NCBI GenBank assembly: GCA_919901855.1
Contig: CAKKQC010000010.1
Location: 43,214-107,213, forward strand
Length of the DNA stretch: 64,000 nucleotides
Source of the DNA: a bacterium
GTDB lineage: Bacteria; Oederibacteriota; CAKKQC01
Direction: 5' to 3'
The notes under the pieces: model-generated
Databases searched by the model: none
What the model was told of the DNA's origin: nothing
The model's input: the letters and a program-made list of their open reading frames with translations, nothing else
In this document: one piece after another, positions 7,125 to 24,871 of the stretch
Position numbering within the stretch: the first letter of the stretch is position 1
Layout of the letters: the number at the start of each line of letters is the position of its first letter
Translations under genes and position numbers: made by a program

Positions 7125-8402
7125 CTACGCGCCTTCGGCCAGCTTGCGGTAGTGCTCCGGGGGCTGGAAGATGCCGCCGGTCATCTCGTGGTAGATCGCG
7201 TCGAGATCGAACCCGCCGCGGCGGACCTCGGTCCACGAGGCGCCGGCCTTGGGATGGTACGACTGCATCGTCGTCCAGTTCGCGTAGTACTGGGAGCCGT
7301 TGGTCTCGAACGCGGGGGCGTCGAGGCCGGGGAGCGCGGGCAGGCGGGCCGCCACGGCCTTGTTCCAGTCCACGAGGATCGGGGAGACCGTTAGATCGGC
7401 GACGAAGCAGGGGATCCTGGCAGCCGTGGCTGCGGCCAGCATCCGGAGTGTGATCGAGAGCGTCTTGGCCGCGGGCTTGAGCGCGATCGCGCCGTAGCCG
7501 AGCGCGATGCGCCGCCGGACCTCGACGTCCGAGTGCGCGCTCTCGTCGGCGGCGACGCGGACCCCGAGGTCGCCGACGTTGACTTCCAGCTCCTCCGGGT
7601 ACGGCTCCTCGAGCAGCACGATCCGGTCGAAGGCGCCGATGGCTCGGGTATGGTCGAGCAGTCGGTTGAGCCGGTCGGGGGAGTCGTACCGGCCGTTGGC
7701 ATCTAGATAATAGAGGACGTCGCCGCCGGCCGCGTTGTGGATTTCCTCCACCCGCCGCATGTCCCAGCGGACCATCTTCTCGGGGTCGCCGTCGCCCTCC
7801 GGGTCCGACCCGATCTTGATCTTGAGCAGGCGGTGGCCGTCTTCCACGAGCCCCCGGATCCGGTCCGTCGGAATCGCGTACCCGACGAGCGGGATGATCG
7901 TCAGCCGCGTCGCCAGCGGGCTCAGCAGGTCCCGTTCCCCGGCCGTGAGGAGATTGTTCAGCCGCGAGGTCGCGTGCGACCGGGCGTGCAACTGCCACGC
8001 GGCGTTGTCGAGCGCGACGAGGGCGTTGAGCACGAACGTCAGCCGCACGTCGAGGCCGGTGACGGCTTTCGCCTTCGCGATCGCGCCGGGCAGGACCGAG
8101 TCCAGGAGCTGACCCGGCCGGCTGAACGGAATCCCGGCGGCGCGGCGGGCGGCATCCTCGAGCACGGCGAACATGAACTCGTTGCCCCGGTCGCTTCCGT
8201 GGCGCATGAAGACCTCGCGGTCGGACCAGAGGACCCCCTGGGTGCAGAGCCCGACGCCGAGGCGGCCCTCGGTGTCCCGGAGCGCGACCACGGTCTGCCA
8301 CAGGTCGGTCTGGGCCCCGCCCTTGAACCCGAGCGGCGTCGAGAGGGGCTCGCGCTCGCAGGCGCACCGGGCGGAGGCGACAACGACGGGGGGATGGTCC
8401 AT
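7125..8402 (-). CDS. Enolase-superfamily enzyme (mandelate racemase/muconate lactonizing enzyme family)
   Basis: MR/MLE motifs in order: KIKIG (KxK), LDANGRY (DxN), LEEP, ADES; start taken at MDHPP (ATG 8402-8400 on minus strand). Confidence 0.75.
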   Translation of the reverse strand: MDHPPVVVASARCACEREPLSTPLGFKGGAQTDLWQTVVALRDTEGRLGVGLCTQGVLWSDREVFMRHGSDRGNEFMFAVLEDAARRAAGIPFSRPGQLLDSVLPGAIAKAKAVTGLDVRLTFVLNALVALDNAAWQLHARSHATSRLNNLLTAGERDLLSPLATRLTIIPLVGYAIPTDRIRGLVEDGHRLLKIKIGSDPEGDGDPEKMVRWDMRRVEEIHNAAGGDVLYYLDANGRYDSPDRLNRLLDHTRAIGAFDRIVLLEEPYPEELEVNVGDLGVRVAADESAHSDVEVRRRIALGYGAIALKPAAKTLSITLRMLAAATAARIPCFVADLTVSPILVDWNKAVAARLPALPGLDAPAFETNGSQYYANWTTMQSYHPKAGASWTEVRRGGFDLDAIYHEMTGGIFQPPEHYRKLAEGA

Positions 8403-8464
8403 AGTGCCGTTATCGTAGCGCGTTGTCCGGCCGGTCTTTCGCCGGGGGCGGCGGGGGTGCGATA

Positions 8465-9640
8465 ATGCAGACCTCCATGAAACGCACACTGGAGGCCCTC
8501 GGCTCCCTCAAGCTCGCCGTCGTCGGCATGGTCCTGCTCATGCTGCTAGTCGGGGCATGCACGCTGGCGCAGGTCCGGCTCGGCATCTACGGCGCCGTCG
8601 CGGTCTATATCCGCACGTTCCTCGTCTGGGTCCGGGTCCCCGGCACCGCGCTATCGGTGCCCGTATTCCCCGGCGGGGGATTCGTCGGGTTGCTCCTCAT
8701 CGTCAACATGACCGCCTCGCTCGTGACCCGCTGGTCGGCGGGCCGGCTGAAGCCGGGCCTCGCCCTCACCCATATCGGCGTCATCCTCCTGCTCGCGGGC
8801 GAGTTCCAGACGGCCTTCCGCGCCCACGAGTCATCGCTGTCCATCGAGGTCGGGCAGACGCTCGACTACACCGAGGCGACCCGGCGCACGGAACTCGCGA
8901 TCGAGGAGGGGAAGGCCCCGGCGGCCCACGGAACGAAGGCGGAGGCGACGCCAGCGGGGAAGCCGCTCGCGACGATCTCCGAGCGCGACCTGGCCCGCGG
9001 CGGCGAGCTGGCCCTGCCGGGCCTTCCGGTGTCGCTCAAGGTCCTGCGGTTCCTCCGCAACGGGCACCTCGTGATGCAGAAGGAGGCCGCGGCCGGCGCG
9101 ATCGTGGTGACGGCCGGGTCCGGCCGGAAGCTCACGGTCGTCGAGCTGCCCGCCGCGACGTCGGACGACGAGCCGGAAACCCCCGTCGCGTACGTCGAGG
9201 CGGTCGCGGGGGGCAAGAGCCTGGGCGTCTGGCTCGTGTCGCCCGTGCTCGGACCCCAGGTCCTCGAGGCGGGGGGGCGCAAGCTGGCCCTCTCCATGCA
9301 CCCGGAGCGGGTCTGGATGCCGTTCACGCTCACGCTCAAGCACTTCAGCCACGACGTCTATCCGGGCACCGATATTCCGCGCAACTTCTCGAGCCTCGTC
9401 CGGCTCGTGGACGCGGAACGGCACGAGGATCGTGACGTCCTGATCTGGATGAACCACCCCTTAAGGTACCGCGGCCTGACCTTCTACCAGGCGAGCTACG
9501 GGAAGGGCGACACGCTCTCGGTCCTGCAGGTGGTCCGCAACCCCGGCTGGATCCTGCCGTATCTTTCGTGCCTGATCGTGACCGTCGGCATGGCGTGGCA
9601 TTTCCTCCTCAGGCTGGCGGCGGCCCGGAGGGACCCGTGA
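8465..9640 (+). CDS. resB: Cytochrome c biogenesis protein ResB/Ccs1 (system II)
   Basis: N-terminal TM helix, large soluble domain, C-terminal TM helices; stop overlaps the ccsA start (GTGA). Confidence 0.7.
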   Translation: MQTSMKRTLEALGSLKLAVVGMVLLMLLVGACTLAQVRLGIYGAVAVYIRTFLVWVRVPGTALSVPVFPGGGFVGLLLIVNMTASLVTRWSAGRLKPGLALTHIGVILLLAGEFQTAFRAHESSLSIEVGQTLDYTEATRRTELAIEEGKAPAAHGTKAEATPAGKPLATISERDLARGGELALPGLPVSLKVLRFLRNGHLVMQKEAAAGAIVVTAGSGRKLTVVELPAATSDDEPETPVAYVEAVAGGKSLGVWLVSPVLGPQVLEAGGRKLALSMHPERVWMPFTLTLKHFSHDVYPGTDIPRNFSSLVRLVDAERHEDRDVLIWMNHPLRYRGLTFYQASYGKGDTLSVLQVVRNPGWILPYLSCLIVTVGMAWHFLLRLAAARRDP

Positions 9641-11511
9641 GCGCCTTGTTGAAGAAACACCTCGCCTGGCTGGCGCCGGTCCTGATCGCGCTCTGGGTGG
9701 CCGGCTCATTGCGCGCGCCGAAGCGGGCCGACGGCGCGGACATCGCGGGATTCGCCGCGCTCCCGGTCCTGCACGAGGGACGGGTCAAGCCCCTGGACAC
9801 CGTGGCCCGGTCGAGCCTGCTGGCGCTGCGCGGCAAGCAGACGATTCCGGTCCGCGGCCGCACCGTTGGCGCGGCGGAGTGGCTGCTCGACATGAACGCG
9901 CGACCCGGCGTCGCCGACACCTATGAGGTCTTCGGGATCGACAGTCCGGACGTTCTCGGGGCCGCCGGGTTGGGGCCTACCGACCGGCGCCGGTTCTCGA
10001 TGAAGGAACTACAGCCCGGCCTGCCCGAGCTCGGCTCGCAGGCCGAGCAGGCGGACGCCGTGCCCGCGCGGGAGCGGAGCCGGTTCCAGGTCGCGATCCT
10101 GGGGCTCAACTCGCGGTTCATGACGTACCGGGGACTGCAGAACAGCCTGGCGCCCGGGGATACGGCGGACTACCCCGGCGAGATCGCCGCGTACGCCAAG
10201 GTGCTCGGCCCGGGCATCAAGGCGCTCCACGCGCATCGGACGGGCGCCGGGATCGACCGCAAGGCCCTGTCGGCGCTGGGCGGCTACTTCCGGCGCTACC
10301 AGTACATGGCCGAGAGCGCCCCGTTCCGGGCGCTCCCGCCCCGGGACGGGGACCCCGCGGACGCCTGGGAGAACGCGGGCGAGGGGCTGATCGAGGGGAT
10401 GCAGACGGGCGAGATCCACCCCCATGTGGCCGTGTTCGCGGGGCTGCTGGACGCGTGGAAGCGCGGTGACGCCAAGGCGTTCAACGCCGGGCTCGGGGAA
10501 TACCGGCGCTGGCTGGCCGACCACGCGCCGAAGGCGGCCCGCGCCGCGGTGGCCGAGGTCCTCTTCAACCGCGCCCAGCCCTTCTACGCCGGCATGGTCA
10601 TCTACGTCCTCGCGCTCCTGCTCGGGTTCGCGGCGTGGCTGGTATGGCCCGAGACACTCCGGCTCACGGCGTTCCGCCTCATGGCGCTCGCCTGGGGGAT
10701 TCACACGGCCGGGCTCGCGTTCCGGATCATCCTGCAGGGGCGCCCCCCGGTCACGAACCTCTACTCCTCCGCGGTCTTCGTCGGCTGGGCCTCGGTGGGG
10801 CTGGGCCTCGAGCTCGAGCGCCGGTTCCGCAACGGGCTGGGGACCGTCGTCGGGGCCCTGATCGGGTTCGTGACGCTCATCATCGCGCACCATCTCGCGG
10901 CCCAGGGCGACTCGATGGAGATGATGCGGGCGGTGCTCGACTCGAACTTCTGGCTGGCCACGCACGTGGTGACGATCACGATCGGGTACGCGGCGACCTA
11001 CCTCGCGGGCGTTCTGGCCATCGCGTACATCCTCCGGGGCACGCTGACGCGGTCGCTCGACGAGGCGCAGGCGGCGGCACTCTCGGGCATGGTGTACGGC
11101 ATCGTGGCCTTCGCCCTCTTCTTCAGCTTCATCGGGACCGTGCTGGGTGGGATCTGGGCGGACCAGTCGTGGGGCCGGTTCTGGGGCTGGGACCCGAAGG
11201 AGAACGGGGCGCTGCTCATCGTGCTCTGGATGGCCGTGATCCTGCACGCGCGGAACCGGTACGTCTCGGACCGCGTGATCATGGTCATGGCCGTCTTCGG
11301 GAACGTCATCACGAGCCTGTCCTGGTTCGGCGTGAACATGCTCGGGATCGGCCTGCACTCGTACGGGTTCATGGACCGCGCGTTCCTATGGCTCTCGGTC
11401 TTCGTCGCGTCCCAGCTCGCGGTGATGGGGCTGGGGCTCATGCCGCTCCACCGCTGGCGCTCCCGCCTCCCCGGCGAGCCGGGCCCGTCTCCGTTCCTGC
11501 CGGAGCGCTGA
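9637..11511 (+). CDS. ccsA: Cytochrome c biogenesis protein CcsA/ResC (system II)
   Basis: Tryptophan-rich WWD motif ADQSWGRFWGWDPKENGALL; polytopic; translationally coupled to resB. Confidence 0.85.
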   Translation: MSALLKKHLAWLAPVLIALWVAGSLRAPKRADGADIAGFAALPVLHEGRVKPLDTVARSSLLALRGKQTIPVRGRTVGAAEWLLDMNARPGVADTYEVFGIDSPDVLGAAGLGPTDRRRFSMKELQPGLPELGSQAEQADAVPARERSRFQVAILGLNSRFMTYRGLQNSLAPGDTADYPGEIAAYAKVLGPGIKALHAHRTGAGIDRKALSALGGYFRRYQYMAESAPFRALPPRDGDPADAWENAGEGLIEGMQTGEIHPHVAVFAGLLDAWKRGDAKAFNAGLGEYRRWLADHAPKAARAAVAEVLFNRAQPFYAGMVIYVLALLLGFAAWLVWPETLRLTAFRLMALAWGIHTAGLAFRIILQGRPPVTNLYSSAVFVGWASVGLGLELERRFRNGLGTVVGALIGFVTLIIAHHLAAQGDSMEMMRAVLDSNFWLATHVVTITIGYAATYLAGVLAIAYILRGTLTRSLDEAQAAALSGMVYGIVAFALFFSFIGTVLGGIWADQSWGRFWGWDPKENGALLIVLWMAVILHARNRYVSDRVIMVMAVFGNVITSLSWFGVNMLGIGLHSYGFMDRAFLWLSVFVASQLAVMGLGLMPLHRWRSRLPGEPGPSPFLPER

Positions 11512-16953: not shown

Positions 16954-17618
16954 CGGCGAAGCGGCGTGGATTCGCCGTGCGATACACCGATGCGGTCCAG
17001 CGGCGCCGGGACGAGTTGTGTTTCGGCGTCTGGGGGATCGGATTCCTCGTCGCCTGGGTCCGGATCTGGCGTGACCCCGATCCCGTGGGCGTATGGGATC
17101 GGTTCCCGCGTCTCTTCGCGGGGGAGTGGCGTCCCGAAACCCCGGTGGCCTGGATCTGCCTGCTGGCCGGCGTGGGATTCCGCGTCTGGGCGGCGGGGAA
17201 CCTCGAGAAGAACCGGTTCGACCGGCCCAAAGGTCCGTACCGGATGGTCCGCCACCCCTTGTACCTAGGCACCCTCCTCGTCTCGCTGGCGTTCTTTCTC
17301 TCCATCGGCCTGCCCGTGACCGGGCTCCTGCTCTGGGTCGGCCTACTCGCCGGCGTCTTCCTGCCCGTGCTCCGCAAGGAAGAGCGCGAACTGGCGGGCT
17401 GGTTTCCCGGCCCGTACGGACGGTACCGACAGTTGGTGCCGGCGCTGGTCCCCGACCCGCGCGCGGTGCCCGCGGCCCTGGCGTCCGACGTCTTCACGCT
17501 CGAGCGGGCGCGGCGGAACTTCGGACTGCGGGCGCTCTGGTTCCTTCTTCTGGTCCCCGCGCTCAACGTGGGACTGGAATGCTGGATCTGGTACCGATGG
17601 CACTACCCCGCGGCCTGA
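16950..17618 (+). CDS. Isoprenylcysteine carboxyl methyltransferase-like (ICMT/PEMT family) membrane methyltransferase
   Basis: GTG overlapping hemB stop; [13 protein letters not shown] motif; hydrophobic helices. Confidence 0.6.
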
Positions 17619-18640
17619 CATATGCCGTCCTGCTGACGGCTGTCCTCGCCACCGGGTGCAGTGGGATGCGGACGTATCCGAACGGGATCAACCACTGCTA
17701 CCTGTGCGCGGTCAAGATCGCGCGGCTGAACGGCTACCAGATCCGGGAGCAGGACTTTCACCCCAAGGCGGGCGACCTCGTCGCGGCCCGCAGCGTCCCG
17801 GACCCCAAGGAGACGAAGGTCTCGCGCGGCTTCTTCCGGAGGGCCTGGGAGGTTCTGTGGAACCTCTGGGAGCACGGCAAGTTCGAGCTCTGGGACGAGG
17901 ACCTCGCGGCGGCCCGGGTGAAGACCGAGGAGCGGTTCACGGTGTCGTTCACGTCGCGCGTGAGCGGGCCGCTCGGCTGGCTGGGCGTGAGCCGTCCCCG
18001 CGAGACCCGGATCAAGGTCGAACTGGACGTCTCGGACTACGGCCGCGAGGACTGGGTGATGGCCCGGAAGAAGCTGAAACCCGCCGACCACGAGCGCGTG
18101 TACAAGGAGATCAAGGACTGCCTCGCCTATGCCAGCCCCACGGCCTATCTCACGGCCACCAAGAAGGCTCGGGTCGCAGTCGAGACGGCTGCGTCACAGC
18201 CGACGGCCGTCTCAGCAGCCCTGGCGCAGCCGACGGCGCAGCCAGTCGCCGGGACTCCGCAGGCCTCCGCTATCGGGGCAACCACCACAGTCGAGTCGGC
18301 GGCGTCTCCGTCATCGGCGACCGCGGCAGAGTCGTCGACTCCGAAGCCCCCGACGGCAACCTCGATGTCGGCCGAGGCGATCGCGTCACTGCTGAGCCGG
18401 GGCCGGGGGAGCTACGACGCGGGGAAGTACGAAGAGGCGATCCCCCTTCTGGAGCAGGTGATCGCGGCGGATCCCGAGAGCGCGGAGGCGTTCGGGTATC
18501 TCGGCGCCGCCTACTACCAGCGCAAGCGGCTGGACGACGCGATCCGGGCCTACGAGGTCTACGTCAAACTCGTGCCGTCGGACACCCGCACGCAGGCGTT
18601 CCTCGGGGAGATCCGGAAGGAAAAGTCCCAGCCTAGGTGA
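17597..18640 (+). CDS. Putative lipoprotein with C-terminal TPR-like repeats
   Basis: Signal peptide ending in a lipobox-like LATGC; Ala/Thr/Pro-rich linker; C-terminal TPR-like helices (YEEAIPLLEQVIAADPESAEAFGYLGAAYY). Confidence 0.5.
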   Translation: MALPRGLTYAVLLTAVLATGCSGMRTYPNGINHCYLCAVKIARLNGYQIREQDFHPKAGDLVAARSVPDPKETKVSRGFFRRAWEVLWNLWEHGKFELWDEDLAAARVKTEERFTVSFTSRVSGPLGWLGVSRPRETRIKVELDVSDYGREDWVMARKKLKPADHERVYKEIKDCLAYASPTAYLTATKKARVAVETAASQPTAVSAALAQPTAQPVAGTPQASAIGATTTVESAASPSSATAAESSTPKPPTATSMSAEAIASLLSRGRGSYDAGKYEEAIPLLEQVIAADPESAEAFGYLGAAYYQRKRLDDAIRAYEVYVKLVPSDTRTQAFLGEIRKEKSQPR

Positions 18641-19046
18641 GGGGGGTCGGGCTGGTCTTCTTCGCGTAACCGACGAGGGATTCGATGTCCTCCCCGGTGC
18701 GGTCCCGGAAGGCGACGCCGGCGAGGAACCGGCCCAGGTTCTCCATGGCGTTGTGCCGCATCCACTGGATCTGGCCCTCGAACCGGAGTTCCGCCTGGGT
18801 CTCGGGATGGCGGAAGGCGAGCCGCAGAACGTCCCCGTCGCTGACCTCGCTGTCGAACGCGATCAGGAATCCGCCCCGGCTGATGTTCAGGGTCTCGATC
18901 CGAAACCGGTCCTGGCCCCGCAGGGCGGGGTCTCCGGAGGCCTGCTCGCGCGAGCGCCGGTAGAGGGGTTCCGCGGTTCCGATCACGTGCAGGGAATATC
19001 GGGCGTCATTCCGTCGTTCCGCATAGGAGGAATCGGTGTCGGGCAT
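18633..19046 (-). CDS. PilZ domain protein (putative c-di-GMP receptor)
   Basis: RRNDARY (RxxxR) followed by NISRGGFLI (D/NxSxGG) motifs. Confidence 0.7.
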   Translation of the reverse strand: MPDTDSSYAERRNDARYSLHVIGTAEPLYRRSREQASGDPALRGQDRFRIETLNISRGGFLIAFDSEVSDGDVLRLAFRHPETQAELRFEGQIQWMRHNAMENLGRFLAGVAFRDRTGEDIESLVGYAKKTSPTPLT

Positions 19047-19088
19047 GTGTTACCTGTCACATCTTACCCCAGCCGGACCGCTCTATCC

Positions 19089-19125
19089 TTGACAGGCGGC
19101 CCGGGGGGGACGAAGATAGACCCGG
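19089..19125 (+). promoter_or_regulatory. Candidate promoter region upstream of the 19174 operon (perfect TTGACA -35 hexamer)
   Basis: TTGACA at 19089-19094 in a GC-rich intergenic region shared with divergent PilZ gene; -10 element not clear. Confidence 0.25.
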
Positions 19126-19173
19126 GAACAGGATCGCCGTGCGGAGAGTTGCTTGTACGGGAGGAGAACATAC

Positions 19174-20658
19174 ATGAAAAAGGTACTCGTTCTTGCCATC
19201 ATCGCCCTTGCGGCCGTCACGGTCGCCGGGAGCGTCTTTGCCGAAAGCCGGATCGTGGCGATGTCCGGCATCGTACGCGTCTCGCCGCCGGCCCAGCCCG
19301 GGAGCGAGACGTGGTCGCAGGCCGCGGTGGGGCAGCCCCTCGTCGCCGGAAGCCTCGTGATGACGGGCGAGAACAGCCGCGTTTCGATCGAGGTCAGCCC
19401 GGGCAACACGGTCCGGCTCCGGGGCAACGCCAAGATCGTGATCGGAGGTCCCCAGGGCCGGACGACGCGGTTCAAGCTGCTGTCGGGAGTCCTGCGCGGG
19501 GCGTTCAACCGGCTCACGGGCGGGGAACGGTTCGAGGTCGAATTCTCCTCCATGAGCGCCGTCGCGTCCGTGAAGGGCACGACGTTCGAGGCCGAGGAGG
19601 GCTCCAACGGGGCGAGCATCCGCACGCTCTTCGGCGCGATCGAGATGGCCCTGAGCGGAGGCTCCCAGAGCATCCCGCAGGGTTGCGGCCTCTTCGTGAC
19701 GCCGGGCGGCGTGATCCAGATCCGGCCGCTGACCGAGGGCGAGATCCAGGACGGGCTGGGCAAGGGCCAGGGCAACCGGCTGGATCTGCATGACTTCGTC
19801 CAGAACTCCCGGGACGCGGCCGCCGCGGACCAGGACATCATCGTCCAGATCCGGGAGGACGACTTCGCGGTCGGTCGGAGCCTCCGGGACGTGCACGGGA
19901 ACCTGGCGCGGGTCGACCAGCGGCTGGTCCGCCCCACCCCCTACTCGATCGAGTTCGTTAACATCGTGAAGCGGGATTCCTACCGTTACAACGGCAAGTT
20001 CTCGTACGCCGGCTCCCCGGGTCCCCGGTTCGACTACCTCATGGGCCGGATCGACTTCAACATGGGGCTCCCGGACAAGGTCGTGGCTTGGCCCGGGTTC
20101 TTCATGGACAACAAGGACACGCTCAAGGCGACGCACGCCTTCGTGGAGCTCGCCAACGGCCGCCTCGGGCACGCCACCCTGGTCGTCCGGCGGGACACGA
20201 ACTTCGGGGACAACGAAGGGGACGCTTTCAAGCTCAACGGCCTCCCCTTGATCGTGGACGGCGACGCCCCGACCACGGACGCCGACGGGCACGAGGCCGG
20301 CGACCTCTGGGCAACGACGGTCATGACGGCCTACGGCGACACGAACGCCAACGGGATCCTGGACCTGGGCGAGAAGACCCTGGCGAACCGGGTGGACCTC
20401 CGGATGGAGGCCTATGTGCTCAACGCGACCGGCAAAGTCCTGAATGTGGGCGACTTCACCGGGAACGCGCTCAACGATCCGTTCGGATTCGCGAAGACGG
20501 TGGCCATGGAGAGCATCCTGTCGTTCGCGGATTACCGGCCGGCGGGCACCGCCGTGGCGGCGGGGAACAACATCGACCTGATCGTCATCCCGGACCTCGT
20601 GATCGCGATCGCCGAGAGGTTCGGACCGAGCCTGGCGACGGTCGACACCGGCAACTGA
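19174..20658 (+). CDS. Secreted protein with N-terminal FecR-like domain
   Basis: RBS GGGAGGAG before ATG; signal peptide MKKVLVLAIIALAAVTVAGSVFA; FecR-like beta-rich N-terminal region; long C-terminal region of unknown function. Confidence 0.5.
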   Translation: MKKVLVLAIIALAAVTVAGSVFAESRIVAMSGIVRVSPPAQPGSETWSQAAVGQPLVAGSLVMTGENSRVSIEVSPGNTVRLRGNAKIVIGGPQGRTTRFKLLSGVLRGAFNRLTGGERFEVEFSSMSAVASVKGTTFEAEEGSNGASIRTLFGAIEMALSGGSQSIPQGCGLFVTPGGVIQIRPLTEGEIQDGLGKGQGNRLDLHDFVQNSRDAAAADQDIIVQIREDDFAVGRSLRDVHGNLARVDQRLVRPTPYSIEFVNIVKRDSYRYNGKFSYAGSPGPRFDYLMGRIDFNMGLPDKVVAWPGFFMDNKDTLKATHAFVELANGRLGHATLVVRRDTNFGDNEGDAFKLNGLPLIVDGDAPTTDADGHEAGDLWATTVMTAYGDTNANGILDLGEKTLANRVDLRMEAYVLNATGKVLNVGDFTGNALNDPFGFAKTVAMESILSFADYRPAGTAVAAGNNIDLIVIPDLVIAIAERFGPSLATVDTGN

Positions 20659-20674
20659 TCCCGGAGGCCCTGAG

Positions 20675-21436
20675 ATGAACCACGTGATTCGAGCGCTATC
20701 CCTGTGTTTCGCGGTCGTCTGGGCGTCCGCGGCTCCCGCGTCGATCAAGAACGAGCTGATCCGGATCGGCGAGGCTGTCCTCACGAAGATCGCGCTCGAC
20801 CCGGCGGACTTCCTCTTCGACATCCACCTGAACGCGGAGGATCGCACGCCCCTCCCGATCGACAAGGACGGCCAGGTTGGGATGAATGTCTTCCCGGCCC
20901 TGATCCCGTTTACGGAGGTAAACCTCTCGGGAAAGGCCAAGCTGCACCGGGAACACGCGGGATGGCCGCAGATCGATATCAACTTCGGAGGGTGGAACTC
21001 GATCGCGGGCATGGTGGCGAGTGGCATGGTCGAGGACTTCAAGGGCGGGCTGTACGGATACCACGGCGGAATCTCGGCGGCCGTTTCCGCGGACCCGCGG
21101 CTGCGGCTCTTTGGGGGATACGAGTTCTCCCAGATGCGCGTCGACGTGACCGTCAACTTCAAGGACTCCTCGACGAGTACGGGAACGGGGTTCGACCTCC
21201 AGAACTCGCTCTCGCACCTGAACGTGGGGAAGACCGAGCACTTCCTGTTCGCGGGCGCCGAGGTGCTCAGGTCCGCGCGGAAGCGGCTCGTGGCGGAGGT
21301 CGGATACGGAGTCGTCAGCAACAAGCTGATGGCGCGGCTGACCTGGTCCTCCAAGAACTTCGACAGCGGATTCGTCTTCTTCCCCGAGAGTGCATGGGTC
21401 TTGTGGCCGGTGTGGAACTTCCAGGTGCGGTTCTGA
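20675..21436 (+). CDS. Hypothetical secreted protein, possible outer-membrane beta-barrel
   Basis: N-terminal signal peptide; alternating beta-strand-like pattern; C-terminal residue Phe. Confidence 0.45.
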   Translation: MNHVIRALSLCFAVVWASAAPASIKNELIRIGEAVLTKIALDPADFLFDIHLNAEDRTPLPIDKDGQVGMNVFPALIPFTEVNLSGKAKLHREHAGWPQIDINFGGWNSIAGMVASGMVEDFKGGLYGYHGGISAAVSADPRLRLFGGYEFSQMRVDVTVNFKDSSTSTGTGFDLQNSLSHLNVGKTEHFLFAGAEVLRSARKRLVAEVGYGVVSNKLMARLTWSSKNFDSGFVFFPESAWVLWPVWNFQVRF

Positions 21437-22866
21437 TGCGTTCCGTGGTGCTCACCGCGCTCGTTCTTGTGCATGGTATGGCCATGGCCGCCGACGCTGG
21501 CAAGCAGGGCGGGGCCGCGCCCGCGACACCGGCTGCTGCCGCTCCGGCTGTTGAGAAGCCCGCCGCCGCGCCCGCGGCGGATGTCGCGACGGCGACCGCT
21601 CCGGTGGCCACAACCGCAACCGCGACGGCAACGGCGGCTCCCGTCCAGGCGTCCGCAGCGGACGTCGCCGCGGACATAGCGGCGGACGAGGCGGCGGACG
21701 CCGCCGCCGAGGCCGGGACGAAGCGGGGCCTGGTGCCGTTCTATGCGTTCCATTTCAGCGAGGGATTGAGTCTGCCCAACATCGGCGGATTCTTCTTCGG
21801 GAACAAGATCGGGTCCACGGTCGGGGGGAAGGTCGTCCTCACGCCCGAGCAGAGCCTGTTCGGGGCCTACGAGCTGAGCTATGAGGGACCGGGCATGCGC
21901 GCCCAGGAGGGCCACGAGTTCCGGGAGCGTTCGATCGACCATTCGATCTCGGCCGGTCACGCCTGGAAGGTGTCGCCCGCGTACGTCGTGAGCTCCAGGA
22001 TCCAGTACATGAACGAGTTCCGCCGGACGGGCGCGAACGAGTCGTTCGGCAACGGGCTTTACGACTACTGGTCGCTGGGCCTCGCGGAGCGCGTGGACCT
22101 CGGGATCGTCCCGGGCGTGCCGCTGGGGGCCGGCCTCGCCTACGCCTACGTCCGGTTCCCGAACTACACCGACCTCCTGCAGGAGTTCATGTCCGCATCG
22201 GTCAACTCCGAGCTGTCCGGGGGCCAGCAGGATTACCACCGGATCCGGTTCGATGCGGACGGCAGGTTCGGAGGGGACCGCGGGCGCGGCTGGCTGTCGG
22301 TCTCGATGCTGGATTTCATCAAGGCGAGGGTCGTCACGGGCTTCGGCACCGCGGCCGGGCCGAGGCAGGTCGATTACGTGACGGAGCTCGGCGGATCGTG
22401 GAAGGCCGCGGTCGCCCAGACGGATTCCATGGCGATGACGGCGGAACCCGTGCTCCGGGTGACGATGCGGAACTCGAACCAGAACTTCCTGCGGTTCCGG
22501 CACTTCGGCGACACGCTGCCGTCCTTCATCAAGGGCAACTACAACTACGTCTCGCCGTCGCTCGGGGTTCCCGTGCGGTGGGAATGGAAGAACGGGCGAT
22601 CGCTCTTCTTCGCGCCGACCTACGCCCTGCTCGCCTACGGATCGCGGCCCCCGCGCGACACGGCCAACGAGTACCGGGTGGGCAAGAAGCAGTTGAACCA
22701 GACGCTGATCCTCGCGATGGGTTACACGTCGAAGTTCTACGCCTACTCGTCGTGGACGTTCGGGTACGCGGTGCAGGTACAGAAGTCGAACAACCGGTTC
22801 GAGAAGTTCCTGCCGTACAACTACACCGGGCATCTCTTCTACACGTCGCTAGATATCACATACTAG
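21436..22866 (+). CDS. Hypothetical secreted protein, possible outer-membrane beta-barrel, with Ala/Thr/Pro-rich N-terminal linker
   Basis: TGATG overlap with upstream gene; signal peptide; low-complexity A/T/P linker; aromatic-rich body ending in Tyr. Confidence 0.45.
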   Translation: MRSVVLTALVLVHGMAMAADAGKQGGAAPATPAAAAPAVEKPAAAPAADVATATAPVATTATATATAAPVQASAADVAADIAADEAADAAAEAGTKRGLVPFYAFHFSEGLSLPNIGGFFFGNKIGSTVGGKVVLTPEQSLFGAYELSYEGPGMRAQEGHEFRERSIDHSISAGHAWKVSPAYVVSSRIQYMNEFRRTGANESFGNGLYDYWSLGLAERVDLGIVPGVPLGAGLAYAYVRFPNYTDLLQEFMSASVNSELSGGQQDYHRIRFDADGRFGGDRGRGWLSVSMLDFIKARVVTGFGTAAGPRQVDYVTELGGSWKAAVAQTDSMAMTAEPVLRVTMRNSNQNFLRFRHFGDTLPSFIKGNYNYVSPSLGVPVRWEWKNGRSLFFAPTYALLAYGSRPPRDTANEYRVGKKQLNQTLILAMGYTSKFYAYSSWTFGYAVQVQKSNNRFEKFLPYNYTGHLFYTSLDITY

Positions 22867-22887
22867 CCTGATATAATCTCCCCGTTG

Positions 22888-22960
22888 GGGGCAGTAGCTC
22901 AGTTGGGAGAGCGCGTCGTTCGCAACGACGAGGTCACCGGTTCAATCCCGGTCTGCTCCA
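22888..22960 (+). tRNA. tRNA-Ala (anticodon CGC)
   Basis: 73-nt cloverleaf: acceptor GGGGCAG/CTGCTCC with G3:U70, D-arm GCTC-AGTTGGGA-GAGC, anticodon loop TTCGCAA, T-arm ACCGG-TTCAATC-CCGGT; CCA not encoded. Confidence 0.9.
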
Positions 22961-22973
22961 CGTCATTGTGGCC

Positions 22974-23561
22974 ATGCTGAATGATGCGGTGTTGCTCCTG
23001 AACTCGACGTACGAGCCGCTGAACGTGATCAACGTGAAGCGGGCCCTTCGGCTCGTCCTGACTCGCAAGGCCGACCCCGTCGAGGCCGACGGCGCGATCG
23101 TACACACGATCACGAGGTCGTTTCCGCTGCCGGTCGTGGTGCGGCTGGCCTACTACGTGCGGCGGCCCAACCAGCGGGTGAAGTTCACGAAGCGGACCGT
23201 GCTCGCGCGGGACCAGCACACGTGCCAGTACTGCGGCGCGCAGACGCGCGACCTCACGCTCGACCACGTCCTGCCGAAGACGCTGGGCGGTGAGACAATC
23301 TGGACCAACGTCGTGGCGGCCTGCAAGAAGTGCAACGGCGCGAAGGGCGGCCGCACGCTGAAGGAGGCGGGGCTCAAGCTCCGGCGCGCGCCCCGCGAGC
23401 CGCGGTTCCTGCCGTACCTGCGGCTGGTCAAGAACTCCTACCAGCGGGCCTGGGACAAGTACCTGTTCACGGACCCCGAGAGCCCGTTCCTGCTGCGCGG
23501 TCCCCTGCCCGTGGCCGTCCCGGGCCGCGTGCATCGCCGCACCGCTCCCGCGTTGGCCTGA
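22974..23561 (+). CDS. HNH endonuclease
   Basis: Conserved N-terminus LLLNSTYEPLNVI; HNH core CQYCG...LTLDHVLPK...GGET...W.N.V.AC..CN..K. Confidence 0.8.
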   Translation: MLNDAVLLLNSTYEPLNVINVKRALRLVLTRKADPVEADGAIVHTITRSFPLPVVVRLAYYVRRPNQRVKFTKRTVLARDQHTCQYCGAQTRDLTLDHVLPKTLGGETIWTNVVAACKKCNGAKGGRTLKEAGLKLRRAPREPRFLPYLRLVKNSYQRAWDKYLFTDPESPFLLRGPLPVAVPGRVHRRTAPALA

Positions 23562-23566
23562 CGACC

Positions 23567-24871
23567 GTGCCGTTTCAGGCGTGGGCGATCCCGTGGCTGG
23601 GTAACGAGCTCCCGAGGGCCGTCGTGGGCTATCTCTTTGCCGTGGCCTGCTACTTCACCGTGGGGGCGAGCCTGCTCATGGTCGTGCTCGAGCACCGGGC
23701 GCAGCGCGAAGGGAACCAGTTCCTGCTTTCGTTCCTCCAGGATTGGAGCCGGTTCATCCTGCTCATGACGACGGTCCTCGGGCTCGTGCTCGCGGCGGGG
23801 GCGTGGCTGGTCGCCGCCGTCACCGAGCCGGCGGCGGTATTCGTCCTGACGCGGGTGTTGTTCTGGGTCTGGGGCATTCTCTGGGTGCTTGCCGGGCTGG
23901 CGCTGTGCTCCGGCCTCCTGCACTACAGCGGGTGGGGGGCCGTGGCGCCCGGGCACCACCTCGTGGTCGGTTGGGTGATGGCGGGCTGCGCCTGGGGCTC
24001 GCTGTTCGTGGTCAACGGCATCCTCGCCTTCCTCCTGGATCCCGGAGCCTGGCTGGAGACCGGCCGTCTGCTGGACGGCTTCTTTAACGCGACGTTCAAC
24101 CCGTCGCTCCTCGTGCATGCCGGTCTCGCGCTCGGCATCGGCGGCCTCTTCACCCTCGTGGCCGGGGCCGAGACCGACCCGCCCCGCCTGCGGTCCGTGC
24201 TCGTCCGAACGGCCTCGTGGTTCGCGCTGGCCGGGTTCACGCTCGCGCCGGTCGGGGAGGCGTGGCAGGTCGCCGTCATGCCGCCGGCGGCGCGCGAGGC
24301 GTTGTTCGGGCCGTCGGGGCACGGTCCCGGCGTGTTCGCGATCGGTCCCGCGCTCGCGATCCTGATCGTCGCCTTCCTGGCCACCGGGCCGCTCGTGCGG
24401 ACGGCCGTCACGCCCCGGCCGCTGGCGTTCCTGCTCCTCCTGCTCGGATTGGCCGCCGCGGGCGTGAGCGGCTGGTCGCGCGAGGCCGCGCGCGCCCCCT
24501 GGGTGATCTCCGGGTATCTCCAGGTCAACGGACTGGGGCCCCGGGAAGCTAATGCCGCGCGCGTCGAGGGCTTCCTGCGCCGGGCCCGGTACGCCCGCTC
24601 GCGGACGACCGCGAACGCGGCTGCCGGGGAACCCGCGTCCGCGGGTCAGGAACTCTTCCGGTTCCAGTGCGGGTGCTGCCACACGACCACCGGGGTGCGC
24701 GGCCTGCGCCGCATCGTGCAGGGGTGGGATGTCGAGACGATCGACCACCAGCTTGGACGCCTCGAGAAGCTGCGGGGGGTGATGCCGGCATTCGCCGGGA
24801 CGGACGCCGAGCGCCGGGCGTTGGCGCGCTGGCTCGCGTCCCTGGCGGTCCCGAAGGGGGGGAAGCCGTGA
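23567..24871 (+). CDS. Polytopic membrane protein with C-terminal c-type cytochrome domain
   Basis: Multiple TM helices followed by FQCGCCHTTTG (CxxCH heme-binding motif) and a downstream Met (GVMPAF); start codon uncertain (GTG 23567). Confidence 0.55.
   Translation: MPFQAWAIPWLGNELPRAVVGYLFAVACYFTVGASLLMVVLEHRAQREGNQFLLSFLQDWSRFILLMTTVLGLVLAAGAWLVAAVTEPAAVFVLTRVLFWVWGILWVLAGLALCSGLLHYSGWGAVAPGHHLVVGWVMAGCAWGSLFVVNGILAFLLDPGAWLETGRLLDGFFNATFNPSLLVHAGLALGIGGLFTLVAGAETDPPRLRSVLVRTASWFALAGFTLAPVGEAWQVAVMPPAAREALFGPSGHGPGVFAIGPALAILIVAFLATGPLVRTAVTPRPLAFLLLLLGLAAAGVSGWSREAARAPWVISGYLQVNGLGPREANAARVEGFLRRARYARSRTTANAAAGEPASAGQELFRFQCGCCHTTTGVRGLRRIVQGWDVETIDHQLGRLEKLRGVMPAFAGTDAERRALARWLASLAVPKGGKP

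What the first reader, a model, noticed from the sequence alone, without database searches (positions are those of the whole stretch)
19174..22866. Three-gene operon of secreted proteins (FecR-like domain protein plus two outer-membrane-like proteins) divergent from a PilZ gene
Three consecutive genes each start with a signal peptide and are tightly spaced (16 nt gap, then a TGATG overlap). The first has a FecR-like N-terminal domain and a long unknown C-terminal region. The second and third are beta-rich and end in Phe and Tyr, consistent with outer-membrane beta-barrels; the third has a long Ala/Thr/Pro-rich linker. A PilZ (c-di-GMP receptor-like) gene is divergently transcribed from the same intergenic region, which holds a perfect TTGACA. 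None of the three could be assigned a function; they may form a c-di-GMP-linked cell-surface system.
Basis: partly seen in the sequence, partly recalled or inferred. Interest (0 to 1): 0.5.

Follow-up and report, generated by a model that had tools for sequence, protein, structure and literature searches.

The report
Conserved three-gene outer-membrane protein module
These three genes form a real operon that stays together in about 80 Elusimicrobia and Coatesbacteria genomes. It encodes an exported FecR-fold protein and two outer-membrane proteins of unknown function, and the neighbouring PilZ gene is only a local neighbour.

Summary
Three tightly packed genes encode exported proteins, and a canonical PilZ gene lies divergent from them.

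- **g1 (19174..20658):** a FecR/CJM-type beta domain, a helical linker, and a well-predicted C-terminal domain with no Pfam family and no solved structural relative.
- **g3 (21436..22866):** a 16-stranded outer-membrane barrel. Its long loops, not its strands or periplasmic turns, carry the most conserved motifs.
- **g2 (20675..21436):** a signal peptide, amphipathic beta segments and an OMP-type aromatic C-terminus. Its fold was not predicted.

g2 and g3 belong to small families with no Pfam, NCBIfam or PDB relative.

The g1-g2-g3 order is kept in every one of 83 loci that reach far enough upstream. These come mostly from Elusimicrobia, with some Coatesbacteria and two Nitrospinae-labelled MAGs. 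The flanking genes differ widely between lineages.

PilZ is next to the trio only here and in three close relatives. The c-di-GMP idea is therefore not supported as a conserved property. There is also no ECF sigma factor, TonB-dependent receptor, POTRA domain or polysaccharide synthase nearby.

My best reading is a self-contained outer-membrane complex with g1 as the soluble partner of the barrels. Its function and topology are unresolved. Interest is moderate: an undescribed, phylum-wide envelope module built from known fold types.

The parts
19089..19117 (+). Promoter-like site for the trio: -35 TTGACA (19089-19094), a 17-nt spacer, and a weak -10-like GAAGAT (19112-19117)
   Evidence: Sequence. 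The hexamer is 1 of 3 in the window, with 7 expected. The consensus scan did not call it, because the -10 matches only 3/6. TTGACA + 17-18 nt + GAAGAT/GACAAT recurs in the L001 and L007 intergenic regions. Function is inferred, not shown.
19174..20658 (+). g1: exported 494-aa protein made of a signal peptide, a FecR/CJM-like beta domain, a helical linker and a new C-terminal alpha/beta domain
19174..19242 (+). g1 Sec signal peptide (residues 1-23; predicted cleavage VFA|ES)
   Evidence: Read from the sequence. AF2 models residues 2-21 as a lone helix. No lipobox occurs in 37 family members. The cleavage site is inferred.
19246..19728 (+). g1 FecR/CJM-type all-beta domain (residues 25-185)
19735..19842 (+). 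g1 helical linker (residues 188-223), modelled with low confidence
   Evidence: AF2 helices 188-195 and 202-223, with pLDDT about 48-62. The linker is about 20-25 residues longer in Elusimicrobia homologues.
19864..20640 (+). g1 C-terminal domain (residues 231-489). Its most conserved segment is 231-310, with the motif DDFAxGRxLxDxHGNxxRVxQ
20675..21436 (+). g2: exported 253-aa beta-rich protein, a probable small outer-membrane protein
   Evidence: No Pfam, NCBIfam or PDB relative. Only 61 cluster representatives among 1.84 billion proteins; the longest is 296 aa, so no fusions. Amphipathic beta segments. C-terminal aromatic residue in 43/51. The fold was not predicted.
21436..22866 (+). g3: 476-aa outer-membrane protein
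21493..21720 (+). g3 N-terminal Ala/Thr/Pro-rich low-complexity stretch (residues about 20-95)
   Evidence: pLDDT below 50. Variable in length among Coatesbacteria-type homologues and absent in Elusimicrobia. Mean conservation 0.11.
21721..22863 (+). g3 16-stranded beta-barrel (residues 96-476). Conserved motifs sit in the long loops: RRTGANE 196-202, FPNYTDLL 241-248, SNQN 347-350, RPPRD 404-408, SNNxFExxLPxNY 451-463
18633..19046 (-). Divergent PilZ-domain gene. A lineage-specific neighbour, not part of the conserved module
   Evidence: Pfam PilZ, E=5.8e-8. RxxxR and NxSxxG motifs present. Besides the window, homologues were found only in L001, L007 and L008 among 89 loci.

Best explanation
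The three genes are one operon encoding a self-contained outer-membrane module. This module is inherited as a unit across Elusimicrobiota, Coatesbacteria and a few other uncultured lineages.

**Shown.**
- All three products carry Sec signal peptides.
- g3 is a 16-stranded outer-membrane barrel with an OMP-type C-terminal signal.
- g2 has the same kind of C-terminal signal and amphipathic beta segments.
- g1 is a soluble exported protein: a FecR/CJM-type beta domain, a helical linker and a new, well-folded C-terminal domain. It has no anti-sigma domain, membrane helix or STN subdomain.
- The g1-g2-g3 order is invariant while the flanking genes change completely.

**Inferred.**
- g2 and g3 are inserted into the outer membrane by BAM.
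- g1 is held at that platform by protein-protein contact, as FecR-type periplasmic domains are held on outer-membrane transducers.
- The working site of g3 is the cap formed by its long, unusually conserved loops, not its short and poorly conserved periplasmic turns. The partner surface on g1 is probably its most conserved segment (residues 231-310), which directly follows the linker helix.
- The module performs a constitutive envelope function: a specific conduit or anchoring platform at the outer membrane. It is not a sigma-factor or c-di-GMP signalling relay.

**Unresolved.** Whether g1 stays wholly in the periplasm (I put this at about 0.5) or is threaded to the surface (about 0.25-0.3). 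The substrate or role is unknown.
For: **Operon anatomy.** A 16-nt gap with an RBS, then a 1-nt TGATG overlap; identical independent gene calls.

**Unit conservation.** HMMs of the three families find g1, g2 and g3 in the same order and on the same strand in all 83 loci that have upstream DNA; the exceptions are contig ends. Called genes are separated by 8-30 nt gaps or 1-4 nt overlaps, apart from one 135-nt g1-g2 gap in L009, perhaps a miscalled start.

**Varied contexts.**
- Here: hem genes, a TPR lipoprotein and PilZ on one side; tRNA-Ala, HNH and cytochrome c on the other.
- 50-56 Elusimicrobia loci: response regulator, NamZ and MltA upstream; SMC downstream.
- Two Nitrospinae-labelled MAGs: a convergent CHASE2 cyclase downstream (L020, L060), with PilC and a PilS-like kinase upstream in L020.
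- An E. minutum-type MAG: the S10 ribosomal operon.
- Elsewhere: PRK, PhoU_div, a POT transporter, M20 peptidase, NrfHA, trypsin-like protease.

**g1.** FecR fold. Two-domain model with pTM 0.53 but pLDDT 82.6, meaning confident domains in an uncertain relative orientation. Conservation peaks at residues 231-310.

**Beta-signal statistics.**

**Rarity.** 20, 19 and 41 hits in 5.8 billion proteins; 61 representatives for g2 in 1.84 billion.
Against: - No physical interaction was tested or modelled.
- Conserved loops could equally mean that g3 is a specific channel or an outer-membrane enzyme that works without g1.
- The short, variable periplasmic turns of g3 offer little conserved surface for a purely periplasmic g1 to dock on.
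- No inner-membrane or energy-coupling component is encoded in the unit, so a transport role has no obvious driving force.
- Operon conservation shows a shared function, not a complex.
- The 83 loci are dominated by one phylum, so conservation values are inflated by relatedness.
Confidence: 0.5

Rival explanations
1. Threaded surface display. g1 is anchored across the outer membrane through the lumen of g3 (or g2). The FecR/RIN-like N-domain would act as a periplasmic stopper, the linker helix would lie in the barrel lumen like helix H1 of FhaC/CdiB, and the conserved C-domain would sit on the conserved loop cap of g3 at the cell surface. This would be a split analogue of inverse autotransporters, RcsF-OmpA complexes or the LapA/MpIBP retention module.
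For: - The putative extracellular loops of g3 are its most conserved part, while its periplasmic turns are the least conserved.
- The most conserved part of g1 directly follows the linker helix.
- The linker helix and loop L4 are both low-confidence in the monomer models.
- Leptospira FecR-domain proteins are annotated as surface adhesins (NCBIfam names).
Against: - No route is evident for moving a 260-residue domain across the outer membrane.
- There are no POTRA domains and no TPS domain.
- FecR-type domains of known function are periplasmic (PMC7186176).
- Which part of g1 aligns with 5ix9 was not reported.
- The model is an analogy with no direct test.
Confidence: 0.2
2. One reading: a cell-surface system controlled by c-di-GMP, with the divergent PilZ protein as the receptor that regulates or partners the trio.
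For: - PilZ has the canonical RxxxR and NxSxxG motifs and shares a 127-nt intergenic region with g1.
- The adjacency is kept in L001, L007 and L008. In L008 the genes beyond PilZ differ (MFS transporter rather than the hem cluster).
- Other lineages also have nucleotide-signalling genes nearby: a CHASE2 cyclase in L020/L060, and a receiver-domain protein 2.7 kb upstream in 45 Elusimicrobia loci.
Against: - PilZ is absent from L009/L010 (Coatesbacteria) and from every Elusimicrobia locus.
- PilZ is cytoplasmic while all three trio proteins are exported, so any effect would have to act on expression or go through an unidentified inner-membrane partner.
- No glycosyltransferase, synthase, GGDEF or EAL gene lies within 10 kb.
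- Signalling genes are common, so their scattered presence may be chance.
Confidence: 0.1
3. Peptidoglycan-linked scaffold. g2/g3 with g1 would organise a lytic transglycosylase at the outer membrane, as MipA does for MltA in E. coli.
For: - MltA is divergently adjacent to g1 in 55 loci (median about 100 nt from the g1 reading frame), followed by NamZ in 50 loci.
- g2 is about the size of MipA (my own recollection; not tested).
Against: - No MipA/OmpV or any other Pfam hit in 51 g2 family members.
- MltA is not near the trio in Coatesbacteria, the Nitrospinae-labelled MAGs or several Elusimicrobia lineages. The adjacency looks like inherited synteny within one clade.
Confidence: 0.07
4. FecIRA-type cell-surface signalling. 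g1 would sense a signal at an outer-membrane receptor and relay it to an ECF sigma factor.
For: FecR Pfam domain and a PupR-like fold, encoded next to outer-membrane protein genes.
Against: - g1 has a cleavable signal peptide instead of the cytoplasmic anti-sigma domain and membrane helix.
- It has no STN subdomain.
- g3 is a 16-stranded barrel with no sign of a TonB-dependent plug or signalling domain.
- No ECF sigma factor or TonB-dependent receptor lies within 10 kb.
- Both CJM and STN are needed to bind the transducer in PupR (PMC7186176).
Confidence: 0.03

Closest known systems
FecR/PupR-type sigma regulators of cell-surface signalling (periplasmic CCSSD = CJM + STN; PDB 6OVK/6OVM; PMC7186176)
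   Different: There is no cytoplasmic anti-sigma domain, no transmembrane helix, no STN subdomain, no ECF sigma factor and no TonB-dependent transducer. g1 is released into the periplasm by a signal peptide and carries an unrelated 260-residue C-terminal domain.
Exported FecR-domain proteins without an anti-sigma part: Leptospira LipL45/Lsa33 lipoproteins, and the LysM-FecR proteins (COG4254) encoded with CHASE2 kinases in Burkholderiales (PMC5192318)
   Same: A signal peptide followed directly by a FecR domain. There are weak NCBIfam matches to LipL45 (E=2.7e-5) and Lsa33 (E=2.4e-4) over the FecR region. A CHASE2 cyclase lies next to the trio in two loci (L020, L060).
   Different: Scores are far below the family cut-offs (23 bits against 350; 20 against 420). 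g1 has no lipobox and no LysM domain, and its C-terminal domain is different. The CHASE2 gene is absent from all other loci fetched.
TpsB transporters of two-partner secretion (CdiB, FhaC; Omp85 superfamily)
Retention module of LapA/MpIBP-type RTX adhesins (RIN domain, PDB 5IX9; PMC5550230)
   Different: Those adhesins use type 1 secretion through TolC-like trimers and are giant repeat proteins. g1 is Sec-exported, is 494 aa long, and no T1SS genes are nearby.
PilZ-controlled exopolysaccharide export machines (Bcs, Alg, Pel, Pga)

Membership tests
FecR-type anti-sigma / sigma regulator (cell-surface signalling) | Periplasmic FecR (CJM) domain | tested here: met
FecR-type anti-sigma / sigma regulator (cell-surface signalling) | N-terminal cytoplasmic anti-sigma domain followed by one transmembrane helix | tested here: not met
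   The beta domain starts at residue 25, right after a 23-residue signal peptide. No other Pfam domain is present. For the PupR layout see PMC7186176.
FecR-type anti-sigma / sigma regulator (cell-surface signalling) | C-terminal STN subdomain that binds the transducer | tested here: not met
   No STN hit at E<=1 in any of 37 members. No PupR, 4m0h or other STN-containing structure aligned beyond the N-domain, and no significant fold match was found for the C-domain.
FecR-type anti-sigma / sigma regulator (cell-surface signalling) | Adjacent ECF sigma factor and TonB-dependent transducer | tested here: not met
   None among the called genes within 10 kb on either side, nor in the relatives' loci.
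Outer-membrane beta-barrel protein (BAM substrate): g3 | Sec signal peptide, a closed antiparallel barrel with an even strand number, and a C-terminal beta-signal ending in an aromatic residue | tested here: met
Outer-membrane beta-barrel protein (BAM substrate): g2 | Closed beta-barrel fold | tested here: inconclusive
Several amphipathic alternating segments in a 61-sequence alignment, the window protein plus 60 relatives. No Pfam or PDB relative. No profile similarity to g3 (hhalign probability 3%).
Outer-membrane beta-barrel protein (BAM substrate): g2 | Signal peptide and C-terminal aromatic beta-signal | tested here: met
   Terminal F/W/Y in 43/51. Hydrophobic residues at -3 and -5 in 94%, and at -7 in 86%.
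TpsB / Omp85 two-partner secretion transporter | POTRA domains ahead of the 16-stranded barrel, and a TpsA partner with a TPS domain | tested here: not met
   No POTRA, ShlB or Haemagg_act hits at E<=1 in the g3 or g1 families. The g3 N-terminus is a low-complexity stretch that is absent in Elusimicrobia. Only the barrel size matches.
PilZ c-di-GMP receptor (the neighbouring gene) | PilZ domain with RxxxR and (D/N)xSxxG motifs | tested here: met
   Pfam PF07238, E=5.8e-8. R12..R16 and N54-I-S-R-G-G59; the NxSxxG residues are invariant in the 4 sequences.
PilZ c-di-GMP receptor (the neighbouring gene) | Binds c-di-GMP and acts on the trio | not testable with these tools
   Needs a binding assay and genetics. 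Conservation argues against a general link.
LipL45 / Lsa33 family (Leptospira FecR-domain lipoproteins) | Full-length match above the NCBIfam cut-off, and a lipobox | tested here: not met
   23.4 bits against a cut-off of 350, and 20.4 against 420; only the FecR region aligns. No lipobox in 37 members.
MipA/OmpV (MltA-interacting outer-membrane protein): considered for g2 | Pfam MipA domain | tested here: not met
   No hit at E<=0.1 in 51 members.

The most novel reading that the evidence does not exclude
The trio is a previously unrecognised kind of outer-membrane assembly typical of Elusimicrobiota and Coatesbacteria. In it a Sec-exported protein (g1) is threaded through, or locked onto, a dedicated 16-stranded barrel. 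Its FecR/RIN-like domain acts as a periplasmic stopper, and a new-fold C-terminal domain is held on the barrel's conserved loop cap at the cell surface. In short, it would be a split, POTRA-less surface-display or translocon module serving a housekeeping envelope function in these phyla.
Probability: 0.18. Interest if true: 0.7.

Novelty: new variant of a known kind. Interest (0 to 1): 0.42.

Why it matters
Elusimicrobiota and Coatesbacteria are almost entirely uncultured, and their cell envelopes are known only from gene lists.

This is a three-gene unit kept intact across about 80 species-level genomes while everything around it changes. It is built from two protein families and one domain that have no entry in Pfam, NCBIfam or the PDB. 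That makes it a strong candidate for a lineage-typical outer-membrane machine.

It also extends the use of the FecR fold beyond sigma-factor signalling, to a soluble exported protein paired with ordinary-sized barrels. If the complex is confirmed, especially in the threaded topology, it would add a new way of attaching a protein to the outer membrane.

If it is simply a specific channel with an accessory protein, it is a routine addition to the catalogue of unknown conserved operons.

Tried and rejected
- **Family and sequence searches.** Pfam and NCBIfam scans of the three proteins, and of every member of their alignments, returned only FecR for g1. A related DUF7354 hit overlaps the same N-terminal region.
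- **PDB profile searches.** Nothing for g2 or g3, and only weak FecR-region hits for g1.
- **g2 against g3 profile comparison.** No relationship (probability 3%).
- **Exhaustive HMM search with the g2 profile.** The rerun found only 61 stand-alone relatives and no link to a known family.
- **AlphaFold-database fold search.** The library is not installed.
- **Six-frame ORF clustering of flanks.** Swamped by overlapping high-GC ORFs. Replaced by targeted phmmer searches with named neighbours.
- **Interpretations considered and rejected.**
  - FecIRA signalling: architecture not met.
  - Two-partner secretion membership: no POTRA or TPS domains.
  - PilZ-controlled polysaccharide export: no synthase, and PilZ is not conserved.
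  - MipA-like role for g2: no sequence support.
  - The DVHGN motif of g1 as a metallophosphoesterase signature: it sits in a beta-hairpin turn, His241 is not invariant, and the context is wrong.
- **Antisense ORF.** The 1258-aa ORF 19057..22833 (-) was dismissed as a high-GC artefact.
- **Literature.** A search for Elusimicrobium + FecR found nothing.

Full report
**1. What is in the sequence**

- g1 runs 19174..20658 (494 aa) and is preceded by GGGAGGAG.
- g2 runs 20675..21436 (253 aa), after a 16-nt gap containing GGAGG.
- g3 runs 21436..22866 (476 aa) and starts in the TGATG stop/start overlap.
- A 137-aa PilZ gene (18633..19046, minus strand) is divergent from g1 across a 127-nt spacer. 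That spacer contains TTGACA at 19089-19094.

Gene calls made by others on the native 222-kb contig are identical. A source names the organism 'Candidatus Coatesbacteria bacterium'.

A 1258-aa ORF on the opposite strand spans the whole trio. It is Arg/Pro/Gly-rich, and I regard it as a high-GC artefact.

**2. The three proteins**

*g1.*
- It has the Pfam FecR domain (E=1.2e-8, residues 62-157) and nothing else.
- AlphaFold2 with a 37-sequence alignment gives mean pLDDT 82.6 and pTM 0.53. The model has a signal-peptide helix, an all-beta domain (25-185), a low-confidence helical linker (188-223), and a confident alpha/beta domain (231-489) ending in an amphipathic helix.

*g3.*
- It has no family hit.
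- With 19 sequences, AlphaFold2 predicts a 16-stranded barrel for residues 96-476, with most blocks at pLDDT 85-96. Residues about 20-95, the Ala/Thr/Pro stretch, are disordered.

*g2.*
- It has no family, no PDB relative and no profile similarity to g3.
- An exhaustive HMM search of 1.84 billion representatives found only 61 relatives; none is longer than 296 aa, so there are no fusions.
- Its alignment shows several amphipathic alternating segments.
- Its fold was not predicted because only two structure jobs were allowed.

*Termini.*
- Both g2 and g3 families end in an aromatic residue (43/51 and 19/19), with hydrophobic residues at -3 and -5. This is the usual signal for BAM-dependent insertion. 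g1 has no such ending.
- No lipobox occurs in any of the three families.

**3. The trio is a unit**

A pattern scan of one genome per species found 91 relatives of g3, and 80 loci were kept. Most are from Elusimicrobia/Elusimicrobiota MAGs. One is Coatesbacteria, two are labelled Nitrospinae/Nitrospinota, and several are labelled only 'bacterium'.

I searched HMMs of the three families against six-frame ORFs of all 89 loci fetched up to that point. g1, g2 and g3 appear in that order on one strand in every locus that has upstream DNA (83 loci). The few exceptions are contigs that end inside the unit.

In called genes the junctions are gaps of 8-30 nt or overlaps of 1-4 nt, apart from one 135-nt g1-g2 gap in L009 that may be a miscalled start.

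The surroundings are not conserved:
- **This window and close relatives:** heme biosynthesis genes, a TPR lipoprotein and PilZ on one side; tRNA-Ala, an HNH gene and cytochrome c genes on the other.
- **50-56 Elusimicrobia loci:** a receiver protein, NamZ and a divergent MltA upstream, and SMC downstream. In 16 loci, additional HEAT-repeat-led genes lie downstream of g3.
- **The two Nitrospinae-labelled MAGs:** a convergent CHASE2 cyclase downstream (L020, L060), with PilC and a PilS-like kinase upstream in L020.
- **A MAG assigned to Elusimicrobium minutum:** the S10 ribosomal operon.
- **Elsewhere:** a uridine-kinase-like gene, PhoU_div, a P-type ATPase, a POT transporter, an M20 peptidase, NrfHA and a trypsin-like protease.

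**4. The PilZ link**

The PilZ protein looks competent. RRNDAR (residues 11-16) holds the RxxxR motif at R12..R16, and it has NISRGG at 54-59; the latter motif is invariant in its homologues.

PilZ homologues were found in only 3 of the 89 loci (L001, L007, L008), all close relatives of this organism. A further Coatesbacteria MAG (L009/L010) has the TPR gene directly followed by g1, with no PilZ.

The adjacency is therefore lineage-specific. It does survive one change of the gene beyond PilZ (L008), so a local regulatory link remains possible.

TTGACA is rare in this window: 3 copies against 7 expected. It recurs with a 17-18-nt spacer and GAAGAT/GACAAT in L001 and L007. It is a plausible -35 for the trio, although the consensus scan did not call it.

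**5. Where the constraint lies**

I mapped conservation from 83 g3 sequences onto the predicted strands.
- The eight long connections would be extracellular in the standard topology. 30% of their positions are at least 90% conserved, with mean conservation 0.71.
- The strands have 11% such positions, with mean 0.66.
- The seven short turns have none, with mean 0.44.
- Loops against strands give p=0.03.

The invariant motifs all lie in long loops: RRTGANE, FPNYTDLL, SNQN, RPPRD and SNNxFExxLPxNY. This is the opposite of ordinary porins (stated from my own knowledge).

Loop L4 carries the strongest motif, yet its pLDDT is only 45-65.

In g1, conservation peaks at residues 231-310, directly after the linker helix. 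There 39% of positions are at least 90% conserved, against 9% in the FecR domain.

**6. Most likely mechanism**

*Shown:* an operon of three exported proteins; one verified barrel; one FecR-fold soluble protein without any signalling parts; strict co-inheritance.

*Inferred:*
- g2 and g3 sit in the outer membrane.
- g1 is their soluble partner.
- The functional site is the conserved loop cap and lumen of g3.
- The unit has a constitutive envelope role.

I estimate a physical complex at about 0.7. I put g1 wholly periplasmic at about 0.5 and threaded or surface-exposed at about 0.25-0.3.

The threaded model is attractive for three reasons:
- The best fold match of g3 is a TpsB barrel, which holds a helix in its lumen.
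- The g1 model resembles the RIN domain proposed as a plug that retains adhesins in an outer-membrane pore (PMC5550230).
- The periplasmic turns of g3 are too short and variable to look like a docking site.

It remains an analogy without a test. Conserved loops could also mean that g3 is a specific channel or an outer-membrane enzyme working on its own.

**7. Comparison with known systems**

- **FecR/PupR regulators.** They need a cytoplasmic anti-sigma domain, a membrane helix, and CJM plus STN subdomains to bind a TonB-dependent transducer (PMC7186176). g1 has only the CJM-like fold, and no sigma factor or transducer gene is nearby. It uses the fold but is not a member of that system.
- **Leptospira LipL45/Lsa33.** The matches are far below the family cut-offs.
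- **LysM-FecR proteins with CHASE2 kinases.** These exported proteins, described in Burkholderiales (PMC5192318), show that FecR domains also work outside sigma signalling. CHASE2 is next to the trio in only two loci.
- **TpsB membership.** Fails for lack of POTRA and TPS domains.
- **PilZ-controlled polysaccharide export.** Fails for lack of any synthase.

**8. Verdict**

The c-di-GMP part is not supported as a conserved property.

The module is undescribed and consists of two orphan families plus an orphan domain. It is assembled from known fold classes, and its function remains unknown. I rate it a new variant of a known kind, of moderate interest.

**Main limitations**

- There is no structure for g2.
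- There is no complex prediction.
- The locus set is dominated by a single phylum.

Noticed in passing
window 22850..22961: tRNA-Ala(CGC) at 22888..22961 (+) is preceded by the best sigma-70-like site in the region: TAGATA, 16 nt, TATAAT with an upstream TG (22850..22877). This site overlaps the last codons and the stop of g3. No terminator-like hairpin was found between g3 and the tRNA.
   Followed up: partly
window 19057..22833 (-): A 1258-aa open reading frame runs antisense across all three genes. Its translation is Arg/Pro/Gly-rich. It is a by-product of about 67% G+C rather than a gene, but an automatic caller could mistake it for one.
   Followed up: partly
window 17579..18640 (+) and 18633..19046 (-): A probable lipoprotein (LATGC lipobox-like site, an Ala/Thr/Pro/Ser-rich linker and C-terminal TPR repeats) converges on the PilZ gene, and the two overlap by 8 nt at their 3' ends. 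The TPR gene keeps its place next to the trio even in L009, where PilZ is missing.
   Followed up: partly
window 22968..23561 (+); L001, L007, L008, L009: An HNH endonuclease gene lies just downstream of g3 (here directly after the tRNA). It is kept downstream of the trio, followed by a cytochrome c gene and a conserved gene of about 390 aa with no family, in all Coatesbacteria-type loci.
   Followed up: no
L020 1423..4383 and 8197..10215; L060 1012..2559: In the two MAGs labelled Nitrospinae/Nitrospinota, a convergent CHASE2 adenylate/guanylate cyclase follows the trio (L020, L060), and in L020 PilC (T2SSF) and a PilS-like histidine kinase lie upstream. Exported FecR-domain proteins paired with CHASE2 sensors are described in Burkholderiales (PMC5192318), so this pairing may not be accidental in that lineage.
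   Followed up: partly
L087 791..8582: In a MAG assigned to Elusimicrobium minutum, the trio lies directly upstream of the S10 ribosomal protein operon (L3, L4, L2, S3). This suggests the module also occurs in the one cultured genus of the phylum.
   Followed up: partly
L005 4291..7145 and 15 other Elusimicrobia loci: In L005, three extra genes lie between g3 and SMC: a HEAT_2 repeat protein, a FlgD_ig-like protein and a 312-aa protein with no family. Homologues of the HEAT_2 protein lie downstream of g3 in 15 further loci. This may be an optional extension of the operon.
   Followed up: no
window 18001..24000: G+C is about 0.66-0.67 across the trio, against 0.70-0.76 in the flanking 2-kb windows. 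The dip is mild and was not examined for signs of transfer.
   Followed up: no
window 19864..19920 (g1 residues 231-249): The most conserved motif of g1, DDFAxGRxLxDxHGNxxRVxQ, is dense in invariant Asp, Arg and Asn residues and sits in the first beta-hairpin of the new C-terminal domain. I could not tell whether it is an interface or a catalytic or ligand site.
   Followed up: partly
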